A stretch of DNA of 64,000 nt from Prochlorococcus sp. AG-363-B04 (GTDB lineage: Bacteria; Cyanobacteriota; Cyanobacteriia; PCC-6307; Cyanobiaceae). The stretch's first letter is position 1. Each line of letters opens with the position of its first letter. The position numbers were made by a program, and so were the translations under genes. Positions 233-56,278 of the stretch are shown here, in pieces. The notes under the pieces are model-generated. The model had not been told where the DNA came from, searched no databases, and worked only from the letters and a program-made list of their open reading frames with translations. The stretch spans positions 23,865 to 87,864 of the forward strand of contig QCFC01000002.1 of assembly GCA_003278465.1 (NCBI GenBank), given 5' to 3'.

Positions 233-452
233 ACTAATAGACCTTATTAAAACTAACGAATCTTAATAATGGTTGGATTTTAGGATTAATTTATTTAATA
301 TTTCTTCCTACAATTTACATCGAATTTTGGTCTTCTTACTTATCAATAAAATTTATTCTTCGTTAACCTACTACTATACATTTCGATTTTACCCTTTCCT
401 ATTTCTTATCCCCTTTGCTTGCTAGATTAGATTTGGTTTTGGATTAATTTAC

Positions 453-719
453 CTAGATAATATCTCTAATTTCATTTGATTGTTTTCCACCAAGTCCTGG
501 TTCAAAAGGAAAAACCAGTTCATCTCCAAATAGGTCATTATAATTTGTTTCATCTACTTTGTTTTCTCTATCATTATCTATGATTTGCTCTGGTGATATT
601 ACGCTTTCATCAGGTGGAGAATATCCTTTGATTACAGCAAAGGCACTATCCCAACCTATAAGAAGCATTACTGATATTAGGGTTACTGGAAATGCAATCT
701 TATAAATTTCTTTTAGCAT
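453..719 (-). CDS. hypothetical small secreted or membrane-anchored protein
   Basis: 88-aa ORF with an N-terminal hydrophobic segment (FPVTLISVMLLIGW) and an acidic tail; no recognisable family. Confidence 0.4.
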   Translation of the reverse strand: MLKEIYKIAFPVTLISVMLLIGWDSAFAVIKGYSPPDESVISPEQIIDNDRENKVDETNYNDLFGDELVFPFEPGLGGKQSNEIRDII

Positions 720-15639: not shown

Positions 15640-15679
15640 TTTGTAGCAGTTGCTACAAAAACGTTCACCTTGCTACAAA
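15640..15679 (+). promoter_or_regulatory. NtcA-type palindrome TGTA-N8-TACA plus a third direct half-site 20 bp downstream
   Basis: TTTGTAGCAgtTGCTACAAA (GTA 15643-45, TAC 15654-56), then TGCTACAAA again at 15671-79; about 60-100 nt upstream of the DUF4278 ORF. Confidence 0.4.
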
Positions 15680-15741
15680 GCGAGGCGCAGTTCGACCCAA
15701 GCCAAGGAACGGGGACTTGGGCAAATCTCGGACTCTGAATT

Positions 15742-25287: not shown

Positions 25288-26679
25288 TCAGAAGCTAAAG
25301 GTTGTTTTTACGAGACCACCAGTGATGTCATCAGCTCCATCTTTCTCAATTGTGAAGAGAGAAGGTGTCACGGTAACGCTGTCACTTACTGCCATTGAGT
25401 AATAAACCTCGTAGGCAAGAGGATCATCGTAGCCAGAGTCGTCTCTATGGCCTTCAGCTGTGCCGACAGCAACGCCAAGGTTGTTGCCTTCAACACCGAA
25501 GTCGCTCCAAACCACTCCAATAGTCCAAGTGGTTTCATCTTCGATGTTCCCGGCGTCATCTTCCTTGTCAGGAGTTTTCCAACCCATGCCGGCACTGATG
25601 GAAACACCGTTATCGAGATCGTAAACTCCGCTTAGTCCCCAAGCGTCGTAATCGTCTTTGTTAGCTGTGTTGGTTTTGTTGCCAGCATCAGCAGAGGTGT
25701 AAGCAGCAGCAACTGTAAAGTTGTCACCAACCCAAGCAAGCTGGGCTGTTACGTCATCAGAACCTTCGTCGGTGAGAACACCTTTAGAAGCGTCAGAACC
25801 GTTTTCTGATACGAAAGCAACAGTTGCGCTGATGTTTTCGTTAGTCCAAGTCAGGCCTGCGCCAGAACCCATTGTTAGTGGATAAGCAGCACTAGCACCT
25901 GCAACGGTCAATACATCAAGAATGGCATCTCCAGGATAGGAACTTGGCCATACACCAAGCATGTCATCTTGACGTACTACTGCGCCTACAGTTGCAGTTA
26001 AAGAATCACCAACTGGGAATTGGTAAAAGCTTCTGTGGATTTCAAGATCGTTAGCAAAAGCAGTCTCAAGGAAAGCATCACCATCCTTGCCAAATGGATC
26101 GCTATTAGAGAAGTTGCCTGAGCGAATTACAGTTTTAAGGAGATCTTCGCCAGTGAAGCTTGATGTAAGAGCGATCTGGGTGTCGTAATTGAAGGTAACA
26201 GCTTCTTTGTCTGTTACTCCATCAACTCCACCGATAACAAATTTTGTAGAACCTGAAAGTTTGGTGGTTCCGGAGAATTGACCAGCTTCAAATTCGCCAA
26301 CAGTTCCTTCAAGACTGTCTACGCGACCTTTGATTACTGCAAGTTCAGGAGCGAACTCGTTGATCAAGCGACGCTCTTCCTCGGTTACCTGAGCTACTTC
26401 GCTAAGGCACTTGTTTAAAAGAGCAGCAGCTTCATAGCGGCTAATGCTTCCATTTGGGGTTGCAGCAACACAACCATGACGCTCAGCCAAGTTGGTTAAT
26501 GCTTGATATGCCCAGTCAGTTGGGTATAGATCAGAGAATTGAGAGATGCTCTTTACTTCTTCGCTAGAAGCGGAGTAGTCAGATACACCGTTGAGATTTA
26601 GGTCAGCAGCATTTGCAGCCATTGGTGCCATTAAGCCCAATGCAGCAGGTGCTACCAGCAGTTGCTGGAAGAGTTTCAT
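25288..26679 (-). CDS. outer-membrane porin, SLH domain plus OprB-like beta-barrel (Som type)
   Basis: Signal peptide, SLH motif (YPTDWAYQALTNLAERHGC), a coiled linker, then an alternating beta-strand region ending in F. Confidence 0.9.
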   Translation of the reverse strand: MKLFQQLLVAPAALGLMAPMAANAADLNLNGVSDYSASSEEVKSISQFSDLYPTDWAYQALTNLAERHGCVAATPNGSISRYEAAALLNKCLSEVAQVTEEERRLINEFAPELAVIKGRVDSLEGTVGEFEAGQFSGTTKLSGSTKFVIGGVDGVTDKEAVTFNYDTQIALTSSFTGEDLLKTVIRSGNFSNSDPFGKDGDAFLETAFANDLEIHRSFYQFPVGDSLTATVGAVVRQDDMLGVWPSSYPGDAILDVLTVAGASAAYPLTMGSGAGLTWTNENISATVAFVSENGSDASKGVLTDEGSDDVTAQLAWVGDNFTVAAAYTSADAGNKTNTANKDDYDAWGLSGVYDLDNGVSISAGMGWKTPDKEDDAGNIEDETTWTIGVVWSDFGVEGNNLGVAVGTAEGHRDDSGYDDPLAYEVYYSMAVSDSVTVTPSLFTIEKDGADDITGGLVKTTFSF

Positions 26680-26685
26680 TTAGGG

Positions 26686-26696
26686 ATTCCTCACAC
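26686..26696 (-). promoter_or_regulatory. porin 5' UTR / SD segment complementary to the Yfr1 core motif
   Basis: mRNA sense GUGUGAGGAAU lies 7-17 nt upstream of the ATG. Nine contiguous nt are complementary to the UCCUCACAC of the Yfr1 at 54998-55056. Confidence 0.5.
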
Positions 26697-27157
26697 GGAA
26701 ATGCGCAAAGCGCATACCTATAATGCACCTTAAAGGGTTTTTGGTCACTTATTAATGTGCCATTATTAACATTAGCTGTCTTGGGGAGTTTGTCTTTTTT
26801 TGACTTGAGATCGGATCTCGGGGAAGATTTTTCTTGGATTTACGTTGTATTTTTTATTCTGAATAGGCCTCTAGTAGAGGATTGGACTTAAAAGGTTGGT
26901 TTGTAGTGCCTCAAGATGATTCCTTCATTGAATAATTCAAGATTTAAAGACTTAAAGCTAAGATCTTAGTCTTGTCTTTGGTTGAATAATAGTAAATATT
27001 GACCGAATAAATTATATTTAATTGTATCTACGTCAAATTCTTTTGGATATAAATTAACATATTAGATAGATAATTATACATTTGGTTTCATCGTTGGCTA
27101 AGCAAGTTTTCTTGTTAGATTATGAATGTTTTAATTCTGCTTTCACCCAATTAAGAC

Positions 27158-27373
27158 ATGGCTTTAGATCAATTGAAATCTTTTCTGCATAAGATGCAGG
27201 AAGATAAAAATTTGAAGGATGAAGTTCTTTCTTCTTCTACTGCCGATGATGTAGCAAAAATTGCCCAGAGACTTGGTTACGATGTTTCTGGTGATGAGTT
27301 GCTTAGGTTCTCAGGAGAGAAGGTTGGGAAGGTAACCGTAAAAAAGAATGATTTGCCTGGTGAATACAATTAA
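27158..27373 (+). CDS. Nif11-domain small protein (Nif11-type leader-like peptide)
   Basis: MALDQLKSFLHKMQEDKNLKDEVLSSSTADDVAKIAQRLGYDVSGDEL matches the Nif11 N-terminal domain pattern; 20-aa tail. Confidence 0.75.
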   Translation: MALDQLKSFLHKMQEDKNLKDEVLSSSTADDVAKIAQRLGYDVSGDELLRFSGEKVGKVTVKKNDLPGEYN

Positions 27374-32128: not shown

Positions 32129-33190
32129 TTATCCATATCTTACAGAATTAGTTTTTTCCATAGGGAGTGCAAATTGTCTCAGTATTAATGAAACAAACTT
32201 ACTTAGAGCTATTGGTTTCGCTATTCCTGAACTTTCCCTCCATTTACGAAATGCCTTAAGAATTTGAATCCTCATTTCTAGGAATTTACCATCATCAAAG
32301 TTAAAGACCCATGGGAATGCATTCCGAGAAGTGTTATTAGTTTGAATAATTACTTCTTCGTCAAATAAAACAGGATCTATCCCTAACATTGAGTAAAAGT
32401 CACCTCGTTCACAAACTGTGAGGGTATGAGTTAAAAAGACTGTCCAAAGGAAAAAGCGACTTAGTAATTTGCCACGAAAGCCTTTGGTCATTCCTGGCCA
32501 GCAACGCATCATCATATTTATGCAGTCACCATGACGATTCTCGTCTTGGCACCATGGTTCAAAGAAGTCAAATAGAGGTGCGCAGGCTTTATCAGGATTA
32601 TCTTTAAGGTGTCTATTAATAAGTATGTACCGCCAATACCCAATCTTTTCGGATAGGTATAGAGAATAGAGAACCCAACTTAGAGGGAAGAATGTTGCCG
32701 CACGCTTTTTCCCTAAGTTTGGCAGGTCAACATTTATCCCCTCTGCTTTTAAAGCCCTACCTAAGAACCCTGCATGACGTGCTTCATCTCTAGCTAAGAA
32801 TTGGAAGAATTCACCTAATTCTTTTCTCCCAGCTTTCTTAAACCGATTGGATATTTCTTTAAACAGCAAGAAACCAGAGAATTCAGAGACAACTGAACGA
32901 ACTAGGTAACTTTCATATATAGCCTTGTTTTCTGGAGAGAGCTCTTCAAGTCGCTCCAGGGAGGCTTTTCGATCAAAATGCTTGAGATTGTAGTCAGCTT
33001 CCATTTCTTTAAACATTGCTTGAAAATCTTCACGTGCGATTTCAAGGTCTGTTTTTGCTGCCTTCTCAAACTCTGTCGTATAAAAACGAGGGGTTAGGAG
33101 GTTTTCGTCGAGGTGTGGAGGAAGCTCATTCCTTCCAGCTCCTCTCATTGCAGGCGAAGTAGTAGCAGTTGCTGTCATTGCTTTCTCCAT
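32129..33190 (-). CDS. acsF: Mg-protoporphyrin IX monomethyl ester (oxidative) cyclase
   Basis: Di-iron carboxylate motifs (EFSGFLLFKE, ARDEARHAGF, DENRHGD) and N-terminus LLTPRFYTTEF, typical of AcsF/ChlE. Confidence 0.95.
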   Translation of the reverse strand: MEKAMTATATTSPAMRGAGRNELPPHLDENLLTPRFYTTEFEKAAKTDLEIAREDFQAMFKEMEADYNLKHFDRKASLERLEELSPENKAIYESYLVRSVVSEFSGFLLFKEISNRFKKAGRKELGEFFQFLARDEARHAGFLGRALKAEGINVDLPNLGKKRAATFFPLSWVLYSLYLSEKIGYWRYILINRHLKDNPDKACAPLFDFFEPWCQDENRHGDCINMMMRCWPGMTKGFRGKLLSRFFLWTVFLTHTLTVCERGDFYSMLGIDPVLFDEEVIIQTNNTSRNAFPWVFNFDDGKFLEMRIQILKAFRKWRESSGIAKPIALSKFVSLILRQFALPMEKTNSVRYG

Positions 33191-39147: not shown

Positions 39148-39705
39148 ATGGCACGATATCCCATAGTTCATTGGTGCCTAACTCGTTTCCTGGGTTTTTC
39201 CCTTTGCCTTTTGATAGCCTTCCCGGCTTATGCGGTACTACAAGAAGGCGATGAAGTACCAAATTATGTCCGCGCAGATATAACAGGAATTGATCTTCAT
39301 GGTCAGGACCTTTCCAAATCCTCTATTGCTGGAGCAGTTGCCAGAGATGCTGATCTCAGTAATGTAGACCTTCATGGAACTGTCTTAACTCTCTCTGACT
39401 TGAAAGGGGCCAATTTAAATGGAATTGATTTAACAGACACACTTGCTGATAGAGTTAATTTTCAGAAAACTGATCTTAGAAATGCAGTTCTAATTAATAT
39501 GATTGCTTCAGGCAGTAGTTTTGCTGGTGCAAGAATTGAAGGGGCTGACTTTACATTTGCAGTTTTGGACAGTGATGACCAGAAAAACCTTTGTGAACAA
39601 GCAGACGGAGTAAATCCTACTACTGGTGTATCAACTCGGGAGAGCCTTGAATGTTCAACACAGATAGGTGGAGGTTATAAGCCAGCTCTTCCTTCAGATT
39701 ATTAA
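39148..39705 (+). CDS. pentapeptide-repeat protein with signal peptide (thylakoid-lumen type)
   Basis: Runs of A(D/N)LxX pentapeptides ([31 protein letters not shown]...). Confidence 0.85.
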
Positions 39706-54562: not shown

Positions 54563-54886
54563 TTACATGTATTTGGCGATTGTTGAGGAAAGAGTTGCTT
54601 TAGGAACTGCTCCAACAACAGTATCCACTTTTTGCCCCCCTTTGAACACCATCAGAGTAGGGATACTACGTATCCCGTACTGACTGGCAACATTTGGGTT
54701 CTCGTCGGTATTTAGCTTGAAAACCTTGATTTTCCCTTCTAGTTCTTTGGCGATTTCATCGACGATCGGAGAGACCATTCTGCATGGCCCACACCATGGT
54801 GCCCAGAAATCAACAAGAACTGGCAGGTCGCTCTGAAGGACGTCCTGTTCAAAGGAGCCGTCAGTAACGGCAGCTGCACTTGACAT
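54563..54886 (-). CDS. trxA: thioredoxin
   Basis: WAPWCGPCR active site; ATG at 54886 gives the usual 107 aa. Confidence 0.92.
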
Positions 54887-54997
54887 TCCCACAATTTTGA
54901 ACTCGTTGAAATTTAGCAACCGTTATTGCGGATTTAAAGATTTAGTCCTGATAGCTGTAGGAACTGTGACGGTCTTGTATAAATAGAGAGCAAAGAT

Positions 54998-55056
54998 AAA
55001 AGCCCGAGCGCGTCGGGCAGGTGGTGTGAGGAGTGTGTGGGCAAAAGCCCTCACAT
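54998..55056 (-). ncRNA. yfr1: Yfr1 small regulatory RNA
   Basis: Minus strand reads GUGAGGGCUUUUGCCCACAC-ACUCCUCACACCACCU-GCCCGACGCGCUCGGGCUUUUAU. That is a 5' hairpin, the single-stranded ACUCCUCACAC motif and a terminator, with a TAATAT -10 box 6 nt upstream, in the trxA-guaB spacer. Confidence 0.8.
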
Positions 55057-55114: not shown

Positions 55115-56278
55115 TTATTTGCACATACCTAAATGTTGTGCTTTTTGGTAGACCTTCCCTTCGGTCAATAGAGATGGGGCTATCACAACCTCTACTTCTT
55201 GCATTTCTCTAATAGTTCGAGCGCCAAGGGTACCCATGGATGTTTTAAGGGCCCCTAGAAGGTTATGAGTGCCGTCATCGAGTTGTGCTGGACCTCTAAG
55301 AATGCGCTCAAGGCTTCCAGTGCTACCTACATTGATTCTTGTACCCCTTGGTAAAACTGGGCTAGGCGTTGCCATGCCCCAATGAAAACCTTTACCAGGT
55401 GCCTCATCTGCTCGAGCGATAGGAGAGCCGATCATGACGGCATCTGCTCCGCAAGCTATGCATTTGCAGATATCTCCACCAGTAACAATTCCACCATCAG
55501 CAATAACGGGCACATACCTGCCGCTTTCTTTTTCATAATCTTCTCGGGCTGCCATGCAATCTGAAACTGCAGTTGCTTGAGGTATCCCTACTCCTAAGAC
55601 CCCTCTAGAAGTACAAGCTGCCCCAGGTCCTATCCCGACCATTATTCCAACTGCTCCAGCTCGCATTAATTCAATGGCAACGTCATAAGTGACGCAATTC
55701 CCTATTACAACAGGGATACCAATATCTGTGCAGAGTTTTTTTAGGTCGAGAATTTCTCGTCCGCTAGGACCAATGTGTTCGGTTGAAACAACAGTTGCTT
55801 GAACAAAGAAGAGATCTGCCCCAGCTTCTGCAATTACGTTGCTATAACGGATAGCTCCAGCAGGTGTACAACTTACTGAAGCTATTCCTCCTTGTTCTTT
55901 AATTTCTCTTATTCGTTTCTTTATTAGTTCTTCCTTTATGGGGTGGCTATAAATCTCTTGCATTAATGGGACAAATTCGTCTTTCCCAATTGAGCTGATC
56001 CTATTTAAGACTGCTTTTGTGTCCTCGTAACGGGTTTGAACCCCTTCAAGGTTAAGCACTCCAAGAGCACCAAGCTTGGAGAGAGCCACGGCCATTTGAA
56101 CATCAACAACCCCATCCATTGCACTGGCGATAATGGGAATCTCCAGTTCAATACCACCAAGACACCAACTGGTATCTGTTATTTCAGGGTCTACTGTGCG
56201 ACCTCCTGGGACAAGAGCAATCTCGTCTATGCCATAGGCCCTGCGAACGACCTTTGAGCGCCCGAACTGAATATTCAC
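55115..56278 (-). CDS. guaB: IMP dehydrogenase family protein (short cyanobacterial type without a CBS pair)
   Basis: TIM-barrel IMPDH motifs ([11 protein letters not shown] with catalytic Cys, IADGGI); GTG start. Confidence 0.88.

What the first reader, a model, noticed from the sequence alone, without database searches (positions are those of the whole stretch)
26677..26730. Porin 5' UTR carries a 9-nt seed complementary to Yfr1 over its Shine-Dalgarno
The porin mRNA leader reads ...AUGCGCUUUGCGCAU-UUCC-GUGUGAGGA-AUCCCUAA-AUG.

GUGUGAGGA is perfectly complementary to the UCCUCACAC of the Yfr1 found at 54998-55056, and it overlaps the GAGGA ribosome-binding site. A perfect 6-bp palindromic hairpin (26701-26715) sits just upstream.

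As I recall, published work in Prochlorococcus MED4 reported that Yfr1 represses Som-type porin mRNAs. This window appears to contain both partners of that regulatory pair.
Basis: partly seen in the sequence, partly recalled or inferred. Interest (0 to 1): 0.6.

Follow-up and report, generated by a model that had tools for sequence, protein, structure and literature searches.

The report
Yfr1 docking box on porin leader
The leader of an outer-membrane porin gene in this low-light Prochlorococcus carries, over its ribosome-binding site, the exact 9-base docking site of the small RNA Yfr1 encoded 28 kb away; this is a clean new instance of a regulation already shown in strain MED4, so it is real but ordinary.

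Summary
The porin mRNA (minus strand, CDS 25288-26679) reads AUGCGCUUUGCGCAU-UUCC-GUGUGAGGA-AUCCCUAA-AUG. Rfam finds a full-length Yfr1 at 54999-55054 (-), in the canonical guaB-yfr1-trxA position.

The 9-mer pairs perfectly with UCCUCACAC in the single-stranded Yfr1 linker. In my accessibility-corrected prediction it is the best site among all putative ribosome-binding regions of the genome (-12.1 kcal/mol).

The only other site of this kind in the genome sits on the second porin paralogue. In 56 of 66 porin leaders from Prochlorococcus, marine Synechococcus and Cyanobium the same box lies 4-10 nt before the AUG. It is 91-100% conserved while its flanks vary.

This matches the published Yfr1 repression of the som porins PMM1119 and PMM1121 in MED4. 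The finding is therefore a new member of a known kind. This scan had already noted the box on Synechococcus porins.

The upstream hairpin is also real and covaries across relatives. Conserved -10-like signals place the transcription start at its first bases, which suggests a 5'-terminal stem-loop; this is inferred, not shown. I found no description of it in the few papers I read.

The parts
25288..26679 (-). Som/OprB-type outer-membrane porin gene (463 aa), the presumed target
   Evidence: ORF list and translation. Pfam OprB 28.1 bits. 35-75% identical to porins of Prochlorococcus, Synechococcus and Cyanobium.
26677..26679 (-). Start codon AUG
   Evidence: The homologues in 69 of the 71 leaders read start at the same MK(L/F)F position; the other two begin MT.
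26680..26687 (-). 8-nt spacer AUCCCUAA between the box and the AUG
   Evidence: Relatives have 4-10 nt here.
26688..26696 (-). Yfr1 target box GUGUGAGGA (mRNA positions -17 to -9). Its 3' part GAGGA (26688-26692) is the Shine-Dalgarno sequence.
   Evidence: Exact complement of Yfr1 nt 23-31. Duplex energy -16.3 kcal/mol, opening cost about 4, total -12.1 kcal/mol. Rank 1 among ribosome-binding-region sites. 91-100% conserved across 69 leaders.
26697..26700 (-). Pyrimidine linker UUCC. It can pair with GGAA at 26687-26690, which spans the SD's GGA and the first spacer base.
   Evidence: The MFE fold shows UUCC/GGAA pairing. The linker is U/C-rich in relatives.
26701..26715 (-). Hairpin AUGCGC-UUU-GCGCAU, inferred to be the 5'-terminal stem-loop of the mRNA
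   Evidence: MFE -9.5 kcal/mol, z = -2.25. A comparable hairpin is present in 61 of 69 leaders. 97.8% of cells pair and all 5 pairs show compensatory changes. The covariance model hits window 26677-26717 at E = 7e-7.
26720..26725 (-). Candidate -10 element CATTAT, which would place the transcription start at about 26713-26715
   Evidence: Sequence. The position matrix of 61 leaders shows A-rich -11..-8 and T at -7..-5 relative to the first hairpin base. Not found by the -35/-10 consensus scan. Inferred only.
54999..55054 (-). yfr1 gene: two stem-loops flanking the single-stranded ACUCCUCACAC (55024-55034)
   Evidence: Rfam RF01116 64.1 bits. Fold and accessibility: opening cost of the motif 0.08 kcal/mol. 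TAATAT -10 box upstream and a U-tailed terminator, read from the sequence.
54563..54919 (-). trxA (thioredoxin), downstream neighbour of yfr1
   Evidence: Pfam Thioredoxin 117 bits. Canonical synteny according to PMC6778093.
55115..56278 (-). guaB (IMP dehydrogenase), upstream neighbour of yfr1
   Evidence: Pfam IMPDH 172.6 bits.

Best explanation
The porin mRNA carries the conserved target box of the Yfr1-motif small RNAs over its Shine-Dalgarno sequence.

Yfr1 is a roughly 56-60-nt RNA with two stem-loops and an always-open linker, ACUCCUCACAC. It pairs through UCCUCACAC with GUGUGAGGA at -17 to -9 of the porin mRNA. This covers the SD (GAGGA), keeps the 30S subunit off, and lowers porin translation.

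Relief would come from the sponge RNA Yfr2 (Cyano-1), whose 5' end GGUGAGGAGU titrates Yfr1. One copy is present in this genome.

The GC-rich hairpin upstream of the box is most likely the 5'-terminal stem-loop of the mRNA. It may stabilise the message.

Shown here: the sequences, the identity and synteny of Yfr1, the energetics and genome-wide rank of the site, conservation of the box, and covariation of the hairpin.

Shown elsewhere (MED4, in an E. coli reporter): repression, and its dependence on the seed.

Inferred: that repression happens in this organism, where the transcript starts, and what the hairpin does.
For: - **Yfr1 identity:** RF01116 at 64.1 bits, full length, lying between guaB and trxA. 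The motif is fully accessible, with an opening cost of 0.08 kcal/mol.
- **Energetics:** a 9-bp perfect duplex of -16.3 kcal/mol. The mRNA opening cost is about 4 kcal/mol whichever start site is assumed, giving a net -12.1 kcal/mol.
- **Rank:** first of 65 candidate sites lying within -39..+19 of 1295 putative gene starts, with no seed requirement.
- **Seed filter:** with a Richter-type filter (at least 8 bp inside the motif, at a ribosome-binding site) only two sites in the genome pass. They are the two porin paralogues.
- **Conservation:** 56 of 66 porin leaders in relatives keep at least 9 nt of exact complement 4-10 nt before the AUG. The block GUGUGAGGA is 91-100% conserved and the flanks 46-77%.
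- **Not just an SD:** the GUGU part cannot pair with the 16S 3' tail. This is my reading of the standard anti-SD sequence, so an SD alone does not explain it.
- **Published experiments on the orthologous pair:** PMC2796815 and PMC6778093.
- **Sponge:** Yfr2/Cyano-1 is present in the genome (RF01701, 49.2 bits).
Against:
- Ranked over every position of both strands, without restricting to ribosome-binding sites, the site is only 85th of 3355 candidates.
- The second porin's site ranks 16th when long upstream context is included.
- A complete relative with no detectable yfr1 keeps the exact box on one porin. Conservation therefore does not depend on Yfr1 alone. The literature attributes this to Yfr10, which bears the same motif.
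- The genome is 78% complete, so ranks could change.
Confidence: 0.8

Rival explanations
1. The box is used mainly by the Yfr10-like small RNAs rather than by Yfr1. Three such genes in this genome carry ACUCCUCACAC in the loop of a stem, followed by a terminator. This rival uses the same mechanism with a different or additional regulator, and it is not exclusive of the best explanation.
For: Three Yfr10-like loci are at C3:32399(+), C3:39308(-) and C6:461(-). They show a motif-in-loop architecture with strong terminators, and one lies just upstream of Yfr2, as described for Yfr10. A yfr1-less complete genome keeps the box. PMC6778093 reports overlapping Yfr1 and Yfr10 targetomes.
Against: In MED4, Yfr1 itself was shown to repress both porin leaders. 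In this genome Yfr1 is intact, sits in its canonical place, and has a fully open motif. Loop-presented motifs are predicted to be less free than the Yfr1 linker.
Confidence: 0.1
2. GUGUGAGGA is only a strong ribosome-binding or translation-enhancer element of highly expressed porin genes. On this view the complementarity to Yfr1 is incidental, arising because the Yfr1 motif resembles the anti-Shine-Dalgarno sequence.
For: GAGGA is a plausible SD at a normal 8-nt spacing. Porin mRNAs are among the most abundant in MED4. Yfr1 even represses an unrelated strong RBS through a 6-nt match.
Against: The four bases GUGU are as conserved as GAGGA (94-100%), yet they lie outside any pairing with the 16S tail. 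The conserved block ends exactly where complementarity to UCCUCACAC ends. Among 1295 putative starts only the porins carry the box. Seed mutants abolish repression in MED4.
Confidence: 0.07
3. This rival concerns the hairpin only. The stem-loop followed by a U/C tract would be a transcription attenuator or terminator inside a longer leader, or a DNA-level palindrome at the promoter, rather than a 5'-terminal mRNA stem-loop.
For: In many relatives the GC-rich stem followed by U-runs looks like an intrinsic terminator. A promoter-like site lies about 390 nt upstream on the same strand (27100-27073). In MED4 PMM1121 the cloned 5' UTR is only 26 nt and has no hairpin.
Against: A -10-like signal (A-rich -11..-8, T at -7..-5) sits at a fixed distance before the first hairpin base in 61 leaders. 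The stem sequence varies freely while pairing is kept, which argues against a protein operator. In the window the tail is UUUCC, which is poor for a terminator. The upstream gap shows no conservation with relatives.
Confidence: 0.2

Closest known systems
Yfr1 repression of the som porin mRNAs PMM1119 and PMM1121 in Prochlorococcus MED4 (Richter et al. 2010, PMC2796815; Lambrecht et al. 2019, PMC6778093)
   Same: The small RNA family is the same and sits in the same guaB-trxA position. The target is the same protein family, again as two paralogues. The seed lies inside the conserved motif and covers the SD. The site takes top rank in an accessibility-based prediction, and a Yfr2 sponge is present.
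   Different: The host is a low-light-type lineage (38% GC, several pcb genes) and the only species of its GTDB genus among those sampled. The site is 9 bp here against 8 bp in the cloned PMM1121 leader. The leader carries an upstream hairpin that PMM1121 lacks. Nothing has been tested experimentally here.
Yfr1 control of outer-membrane and cell-wall genes in Nostoc sp. PCC 7120 (Brenes-Alvarez et al. 2020, PMC6974561)
   Same: The conserved Yfr1 motif is used as the seed against 5' UTRs. Porin homologues (alr0834 and OprB-like porins) are among the predicted targets.
   Different: The regulon there is centred on peptidoglycan and heterocyst envelope genes, in a distant cyanobacterial lineage.
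Enterobacterial porin-repressing small RNAs (MicF/ompF, MicA/ompA, RybB) and the ompA 5' stem-loop
   Same: A trans-acting RNA occludes the RBS of an abundant, long-lived porin mRNA. A 5' stem-loop on a porin mRNA is known to act as a stabiliser in ompA; this rests on my own knowledge.
   Different: There is no sequence relationship. Whether an Hfq partner exists in this genome was not tested. The role of the hairpin here is inferred only.

Membership tests
Yfr1 sRNA (Rfam RF01116) | Covariance-model score above the gathering threshold over the full model | tested here: met
   64.1 bits against 38, model positions 1-59 of 59.
Yfr1 sRNA (Rfam RF01116) | Invariant ACUCCUCACAC held single-stranded between two stem-loops | tested here: met
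   The MFE fold shows both stems with the linker open. Opening cost of the motif is 0.08 kcal/mol.
Yfr1 sRNA (Rfam RF01116) | Location between guaB and trxA | tested here: met
   IMPDH at 55115-56278 and thioredoxin at 54563-54919, both on the same strand. The criterion comes from PMC6778093.
Yfr1 sRNA (Rfam RF01116) | Expressed as an abundant small transcript | not testable with these tools
Yfr1-repressed som porin leader (PMM1119/PMM1121 type) | The gene encodes a Som/OprB-type outer-membrane porin | tested here: met
   Pfam OprB. Homologous over its full length to picocyanobacterial porins.
Yfr1-repressed som porin leader (PMM1119/PMM1121 type) | At least 8 consecutive base pairs with the conserved Yfr1 motif | tested here: met
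   9 bp, GUGUGAGGA with UCCUCACAC.
Yfr1-repressed som porin leader (PMM1119/PMM1121 type) | The site overlaps the SD within -39..+19 of the start codon | tested here: met
   Positions -17 to -9, with GAGGA 8 nt before the AUG.
Yfr1-repressed som porin leader (PMM1119/PMM1121 type) | Top rank in a hybridisation-plus-accessibility prediction over the genome's RBS regions | tested here: met
   Rank 1 of 65 sites across 1295 putative starts. This used my own IntaRNA-like script on a 78%-complete genome without a proper gene annotation.
Yfr1-repressed som porin leader (PMM1119/PMM1121 type) | Translation is repressed by Yfr1 and rescued by seed mutation | not testable with these tools
   Shown only for the MED4 orthologues.
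5'-terminal stabilising stem-loop of an mRNA (ompA type) | Conserved helix with compensatory changes | tested here: met
   97.8% of cells paired against 77.5% in shuffles. All 5 pairs show double changes. 0 of 500 shuffles reach the covariation score. The alignment was fitted to the model. MFE compared with controls gives p = 2e-6.
5'-terminal stabilising stem-loop of an mRNA (ompA type) | The helix starts at or within a few nt of the primary 5' end | tested here: inconclusive
   Supported only by the position of a -10-like signal. There are no 5'-end data. MED4 PMM1121 has no hairpin.
5'-terminal stabilising stem-loop of an mRNA (ompA type) | Removing the helix shortens mRNA half-life | not testable with these tools
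   The som mRNA is long-lived in MED4 (13-29 min), but that leader lacks the hairpin.

The most novel reading that the evidence does not exclude
Porin genes of marine and freshwater picocyanobacteria share a three-part leader that I did not find described. It begins with a 5'-terminal GC-rich stem-loop of free sequence at the transcription start. A pyrimidine linker follows, which can weakly pair with the SD. The invariant Yfr1/Yfr10 box comes last. The stem-loop would set the long half-life of these very abundant mRNAs, which would make translational control by the small RNAs the effective way to regulate them.
Probability: 0.4. Interest if true: 0.4.

Novelty: new member of a known kind. Interest (0 to 1): 0.25.

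Why it matters
Yfr1 is one of the few small RNAs conserved across nearly all cyanobacteria, and porins are its best-proven targets. This case shows that both partners and the exact box are kept in an uncultured low-light Prochlorococcus lineage. It also shows the box on most porin paralogues across the family. That supports porin control as the ancestral core of the Yfr1 regulon and offers a simple genomic marker for it. It does not open a new question. The only possibly new element is the covarying hairpin at the predicted 5' end.

Tried and rejected
- **Plain duplex folding without accessibility** over-extends the pairing and ranks G-rich coding sites first. I replaced it with an IntaRNA-like score.
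- **MAFFT plus RNAalifold on 40 leaders** found no consensus helix, because linker lengths put the hairpins out of register. I replaced it with a covariance model and pair counts.
- **Linking box decay to loss of yfr1** was inconclusive. Single-cell genomes are incomplete. A complete yfr1-less genome keeps the exact box on one porin and an 8-mer on the other. Yfr10 carries the same motif.
- **Consensus promoter scan:** no -35/-10 pair next to the leader.
- **ppa, another MED4 Yfr1 target,** is not in the assembled 78% of the genome.
- **The 440-nt gap upstream of the leader** shows no similarity to relatives' loci or to other parts of the genome.
- **A Yfr1-like anti-box in the porin 3' UTR,** as noted elsewhere in this scan, is absent here.
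- **Transcription-start data for a Synechococcus CC9605 porin** (PMC5069720 supplement) could not be used without that genome's sequence.

Full report
**1. What is in the sequence**

Read on the minus strand, window 26677-26730 gives ...GCAUUAUAGGU-AUGCGC-UUU-GCGCAU-UUCC-GUGUGAGGA-AUCCCUAA-AUG. The AUG at 26679-26677 opens a 463-codon frame that ends at 25288.

The product starts with a signal-peptide-like MKLFQQLLVAPAALGLMAPMAANA. It matches Pfam OprB. It is 35-75% identical over its full length to porins of Prochlorococcus, marine Synechococcus and Cyanobium.

Rfam finds a full-length Yfr1 at 54999-55054 on the minus strand, scoring 64.1 bits against a gathering score of 38. It lies between guaB (55115-56278) and trxA (54563-54919). 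That is the canonical position named in PMC6778093.

The RNA folds into two stem-loops with the linker CACUCCUCACACCACCU open. The energy needed to free the 11-nt motif is 0.08 kcal/mol.

**2. Is it more than chance?**

GTGTGAGGA occurs twice in the window: in the porin leader, and as the antisense of yfr1 itself. Shuffles give 0.27 expected.

In the 1.50-Mb, 78%-complete assembly that holds the window, it occurs ten times, against four for the reversed control. I placed all ten:

| Occurrences | Context |
|---|---|
| 2 | Directly before the start codons of the two porin paralogues of the genome. The second is at C15:32800, 5 nt before the AUG of a 469-aa porin. tblastn finds no third full-length porin gene, only a weak partial hit on C5. 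|
| 1 | Antisense of yfr1 |
| 3 | Antisense of three Yfr10-like small RNA genes |
| 2 | Antisense of coding sequence (a cpeS-like gene and gltB) |
| 2 | Sense inside coding sequence, one of them recG |

At the RNA level, therefore, the only ribosome-binding sites that carry the box are the two porins.

**3. Energetics**

No IntaRNA binary was available. I wrote an equivalent with ViennaRNA. It scores duplex energy, the cost of opening Yfr1 folded globally, and the cost of opening the mRNA folded locally (about 200-nt context, 100-nt span). These settings follow Richter et al.

- The 9-bp duplex gives -16.3 kcal/mol.
- Opening the mRNA costs about 4 kcal/mol whichever transcription start is assumed.
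- The net energy is -12.1 kcal/mol.

The rank depends on what is compared:

| Comparison set | Rank of this site |
|---|---|
| Every position of both strands | 85th of 3355 candidates. G-rich coding stretches come first, as Richter et al. also saw when site location was ignored. |
| Region -39..+19 of 1295 putative starts, no seed requirement | 1st of 65. The second porin is 16th, or about equal to the first if its 5' UTR is short. |
| Seed of at least 8 bp inside the motif, at a ribosome-binding site | Only the two porins remain. |

That criterion is not met.

**4. Comparative evidence**

I read the leaders of 66 porin genes from relatives.

- 56 have at least 9 nt of exact complement to the Yfr1 motif, ending 4-10 nt before the AUG.
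- Another ten keep 7-8 nt.
- Column by column, G-U-G-U-G-A-G-G-A is 94, 96, 100, 100, 100, 100, 100, 97 and 91% conserved.
- The neighbouring columns drop to 46-57% on the 5' side and 77/54% on the 3' side.

The conserved block therefore has the same borders as the pairing with UCCUCACAC. Its GUGU half is not explained by pairing with the 16S tail. That last point is my own reading of the anti-SD sequence.

These genes are related to one another, so the counts are not independent events. However, the proteins have diverged to 35-45% identity, and the rest of each leader is unalignable.

**5. Known biology**

- Richter et al. 2010 (PMC2796815) predicted the two som porins of MED4 as ranks 1 and 3. 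They showed 3.0- and 2.7-fold repression of leader-GFP fusions by Yfr1 in E. coli. Repression was abolished by the CC-to-GG and UCCU-to-AAAA changes.
- Lambrecht et al. 2019 (PMC6778093) confirmed both porins by pull-down.
  - They showed that Yfr2 relieves the repression.
  - They describe Yfr10 as a second RNA with the same motif.
  - They state that LLII/III strains lack yfr1 but that SS120 keeps Yfr10.
- Their primer table gives the PMM1121 5' UTR as GUCCCUAAUAUUGUGUGAGGCAAUUU-AUG. That is an 8-nt box, 12 nt from the 5' end, with no hairpin. I found this exact sequence in one genome of the family and read its promoter region.
- In Nostoc, porin homologues are again among the predicted Yfr1 targets (PMC6974561).

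The finding is thus an orthologous instance of a published regulatory pair.

**6. Test against loss of yfr1**

Rfam Yfr1 is found in 34 of 41 sampled relatives. One complete 1.8-Mb genome without it keeps the exact 9-mer on one porin leader and an 8-mer on the other. It also holds four copies of CTCCTCACAC.

This fits the published view that Yfr10 covers for Yfr1. It does mean that conservation of the box cannot be credited to Yfr1 alone.

In the window's genome three Yfr10-like genes exist. Each has a stem with ACUCCUCACAC in its loop, followed by a strong terminator. One lies just upstream of the single Cyano-1/Yfr2 gene (RF01701, 49.2 bits). This is the arrangement reported for high-light strains.

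**7. The hairpin**

- The 15-nt palindrome at 26701-26715 folds at -9.5 kcal/mol within the 28 nt before the box (z = -2.25; 7 of 200 shuffles are as stable).
- A comparable GC-rich hairpin is present in 61 of 69 leaders. Stems are 4-9 bp and loops mostly 3-6 nt, and in most leaders the hairpin ends 3-9 nt before the box.
- The median MFE is -7.5 kcal/mol. A control window 45 nt further upstream gives -3.3 and shuffles give -3.4 (Wilcoxon p = 2e-6 and 3e-9).
- A covariance model built from seven in-register leaders finds 64 sites in the loci. It finds exactly one in the window, at 26677-26717, E = 7e-7.
- On the resulting alignment 97.8% of cells pair, against 77.5% in shuffles and 30-59% when partners are slid. 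All five pairs show changes on both sides. No shuffle reaches the covariation score.

Two caveats apply. The alignment was fitted to the model, and about 40% of rows are gapped at the helix.

Aligning the 61 leaders on the first hairpin base shows A-rich columns at -11..-8 and T at -7..-5, the signature of a -10 element. In the window this element is CATTAT at 26720-26725.

This places the transcription start at the first bases of the stem, so I read the hairpin as a 5'-terminal stem-loop. That remains an inference. The consensus promoter scan saw nothing there. MED4 PMM1121 and the second porin of this genome lack a stable hairpin there. Read data were not available. An attenuator reading is kept as a rival.

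**8. Verdict**

The mechanism is occlusion of the SD by the open motif of Yfr1, probably shared with the Yfr10-like RNAs and countered by Yfr2. It rests on experiments with the MED4 orthologues, plus sequence, energy and conservation evidence here.

The finding is a new member of a known kind. This scan had already noted the same box on Synechococcus porins (e1-2656413). The covarying hairpin at the predicted 5' end is the only part I did not find described in the papers I read.

Noticed in passing
Outside the window: G000:C15:32800-32808 (+), porin CDS from 32814: The second porin paralogue (469 aa, 46% identical) carries the identical GUGUGAGGA box 5 nt before its AUG. It has no stable adjacent hairpin, so its leader resembles the short MED4 PMM1121 type.
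   Followed up: yes
Outside the window: G000:C3 about 32380-32460 (+), C3 about 39240-39320 (-), C6 about 400-470 (-): Three paralogous Yfr10-like small RNA genes. Each has a short stem with ACUCCUCACAC in its loop, followed by a strong terminator (GGGYGCYACUCGAUGAGGGYRCC plus a U-run). Rfam does not recognise them.
   Followed up: partly
Outside the window: G000:C6:246-312 (-): A single Cyano-1/Yfr2 RNA (RF01701, 49.2 bits) with the 5' end GGUGAGGAGU complementary to Yfr1. It lies directly downstream of one Yfr10-like gene, as reported for high-light Prochlorococcus.
   Followed up: partly
Outside the window: G000:C6:35380-35403 (-), inside a 118-aa ORF of unknown function: AGGUGGUGAUGAGGAGCGUG is complementary to Yfr1 nt 18-36 apart from one bulge and one mismatch. 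It is the best predicted Yfr1 partner in the whole genome (-32 kcal/mol duplex, -25 net). It lies in coding sequence (GGDEERE) and could be chance in a purine-rich stretch or a coding-region target.
   Followed up: no
window 15659-15721 (+): Glutamine-II riboswitch aptamer (RF01704, 70.4 bits, full length).
   Followed up: no
window 26687-26700 (-): The pyrimidine linker UUCC can pair with GGAA at 26687-26690, which spans the SD's GGA and the first spacer base. This would leave GUGUGA in a 6-nt loop. The linker is U/C-rich in most relatives, so a weak self-masking of the SD that presents half of the box in a loop may be conserved.
   Followed up: partly
L069, L077, L078, L040 (Synechococcus WH7803, WH 8017 and related), about 10-20 nt upstream of the box: A subgroup of porin leaders has CCCUCA upstream of the box, able to pair with UGAGG of the box itself. 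This is a built-in anti-box within the leader.
   Followed up: no
window 27158-27373 (+): The gene divergent from the porin encodes a 71-aa Nif11-domain peptide (Pfam Nif11, 57 bits). The 440-nt gap between it and the porin leader shows no similarity to relatives.
   Followed up: partly
whole genome G000: In a sample of 400 family members and 40 relatives, no other genome shares this genome's GTDB genus. The genome has 38.3% GC, several pcb genes and an intact yfr1, whereas published LLII/III strains lack yfr1.
   Followed up: no
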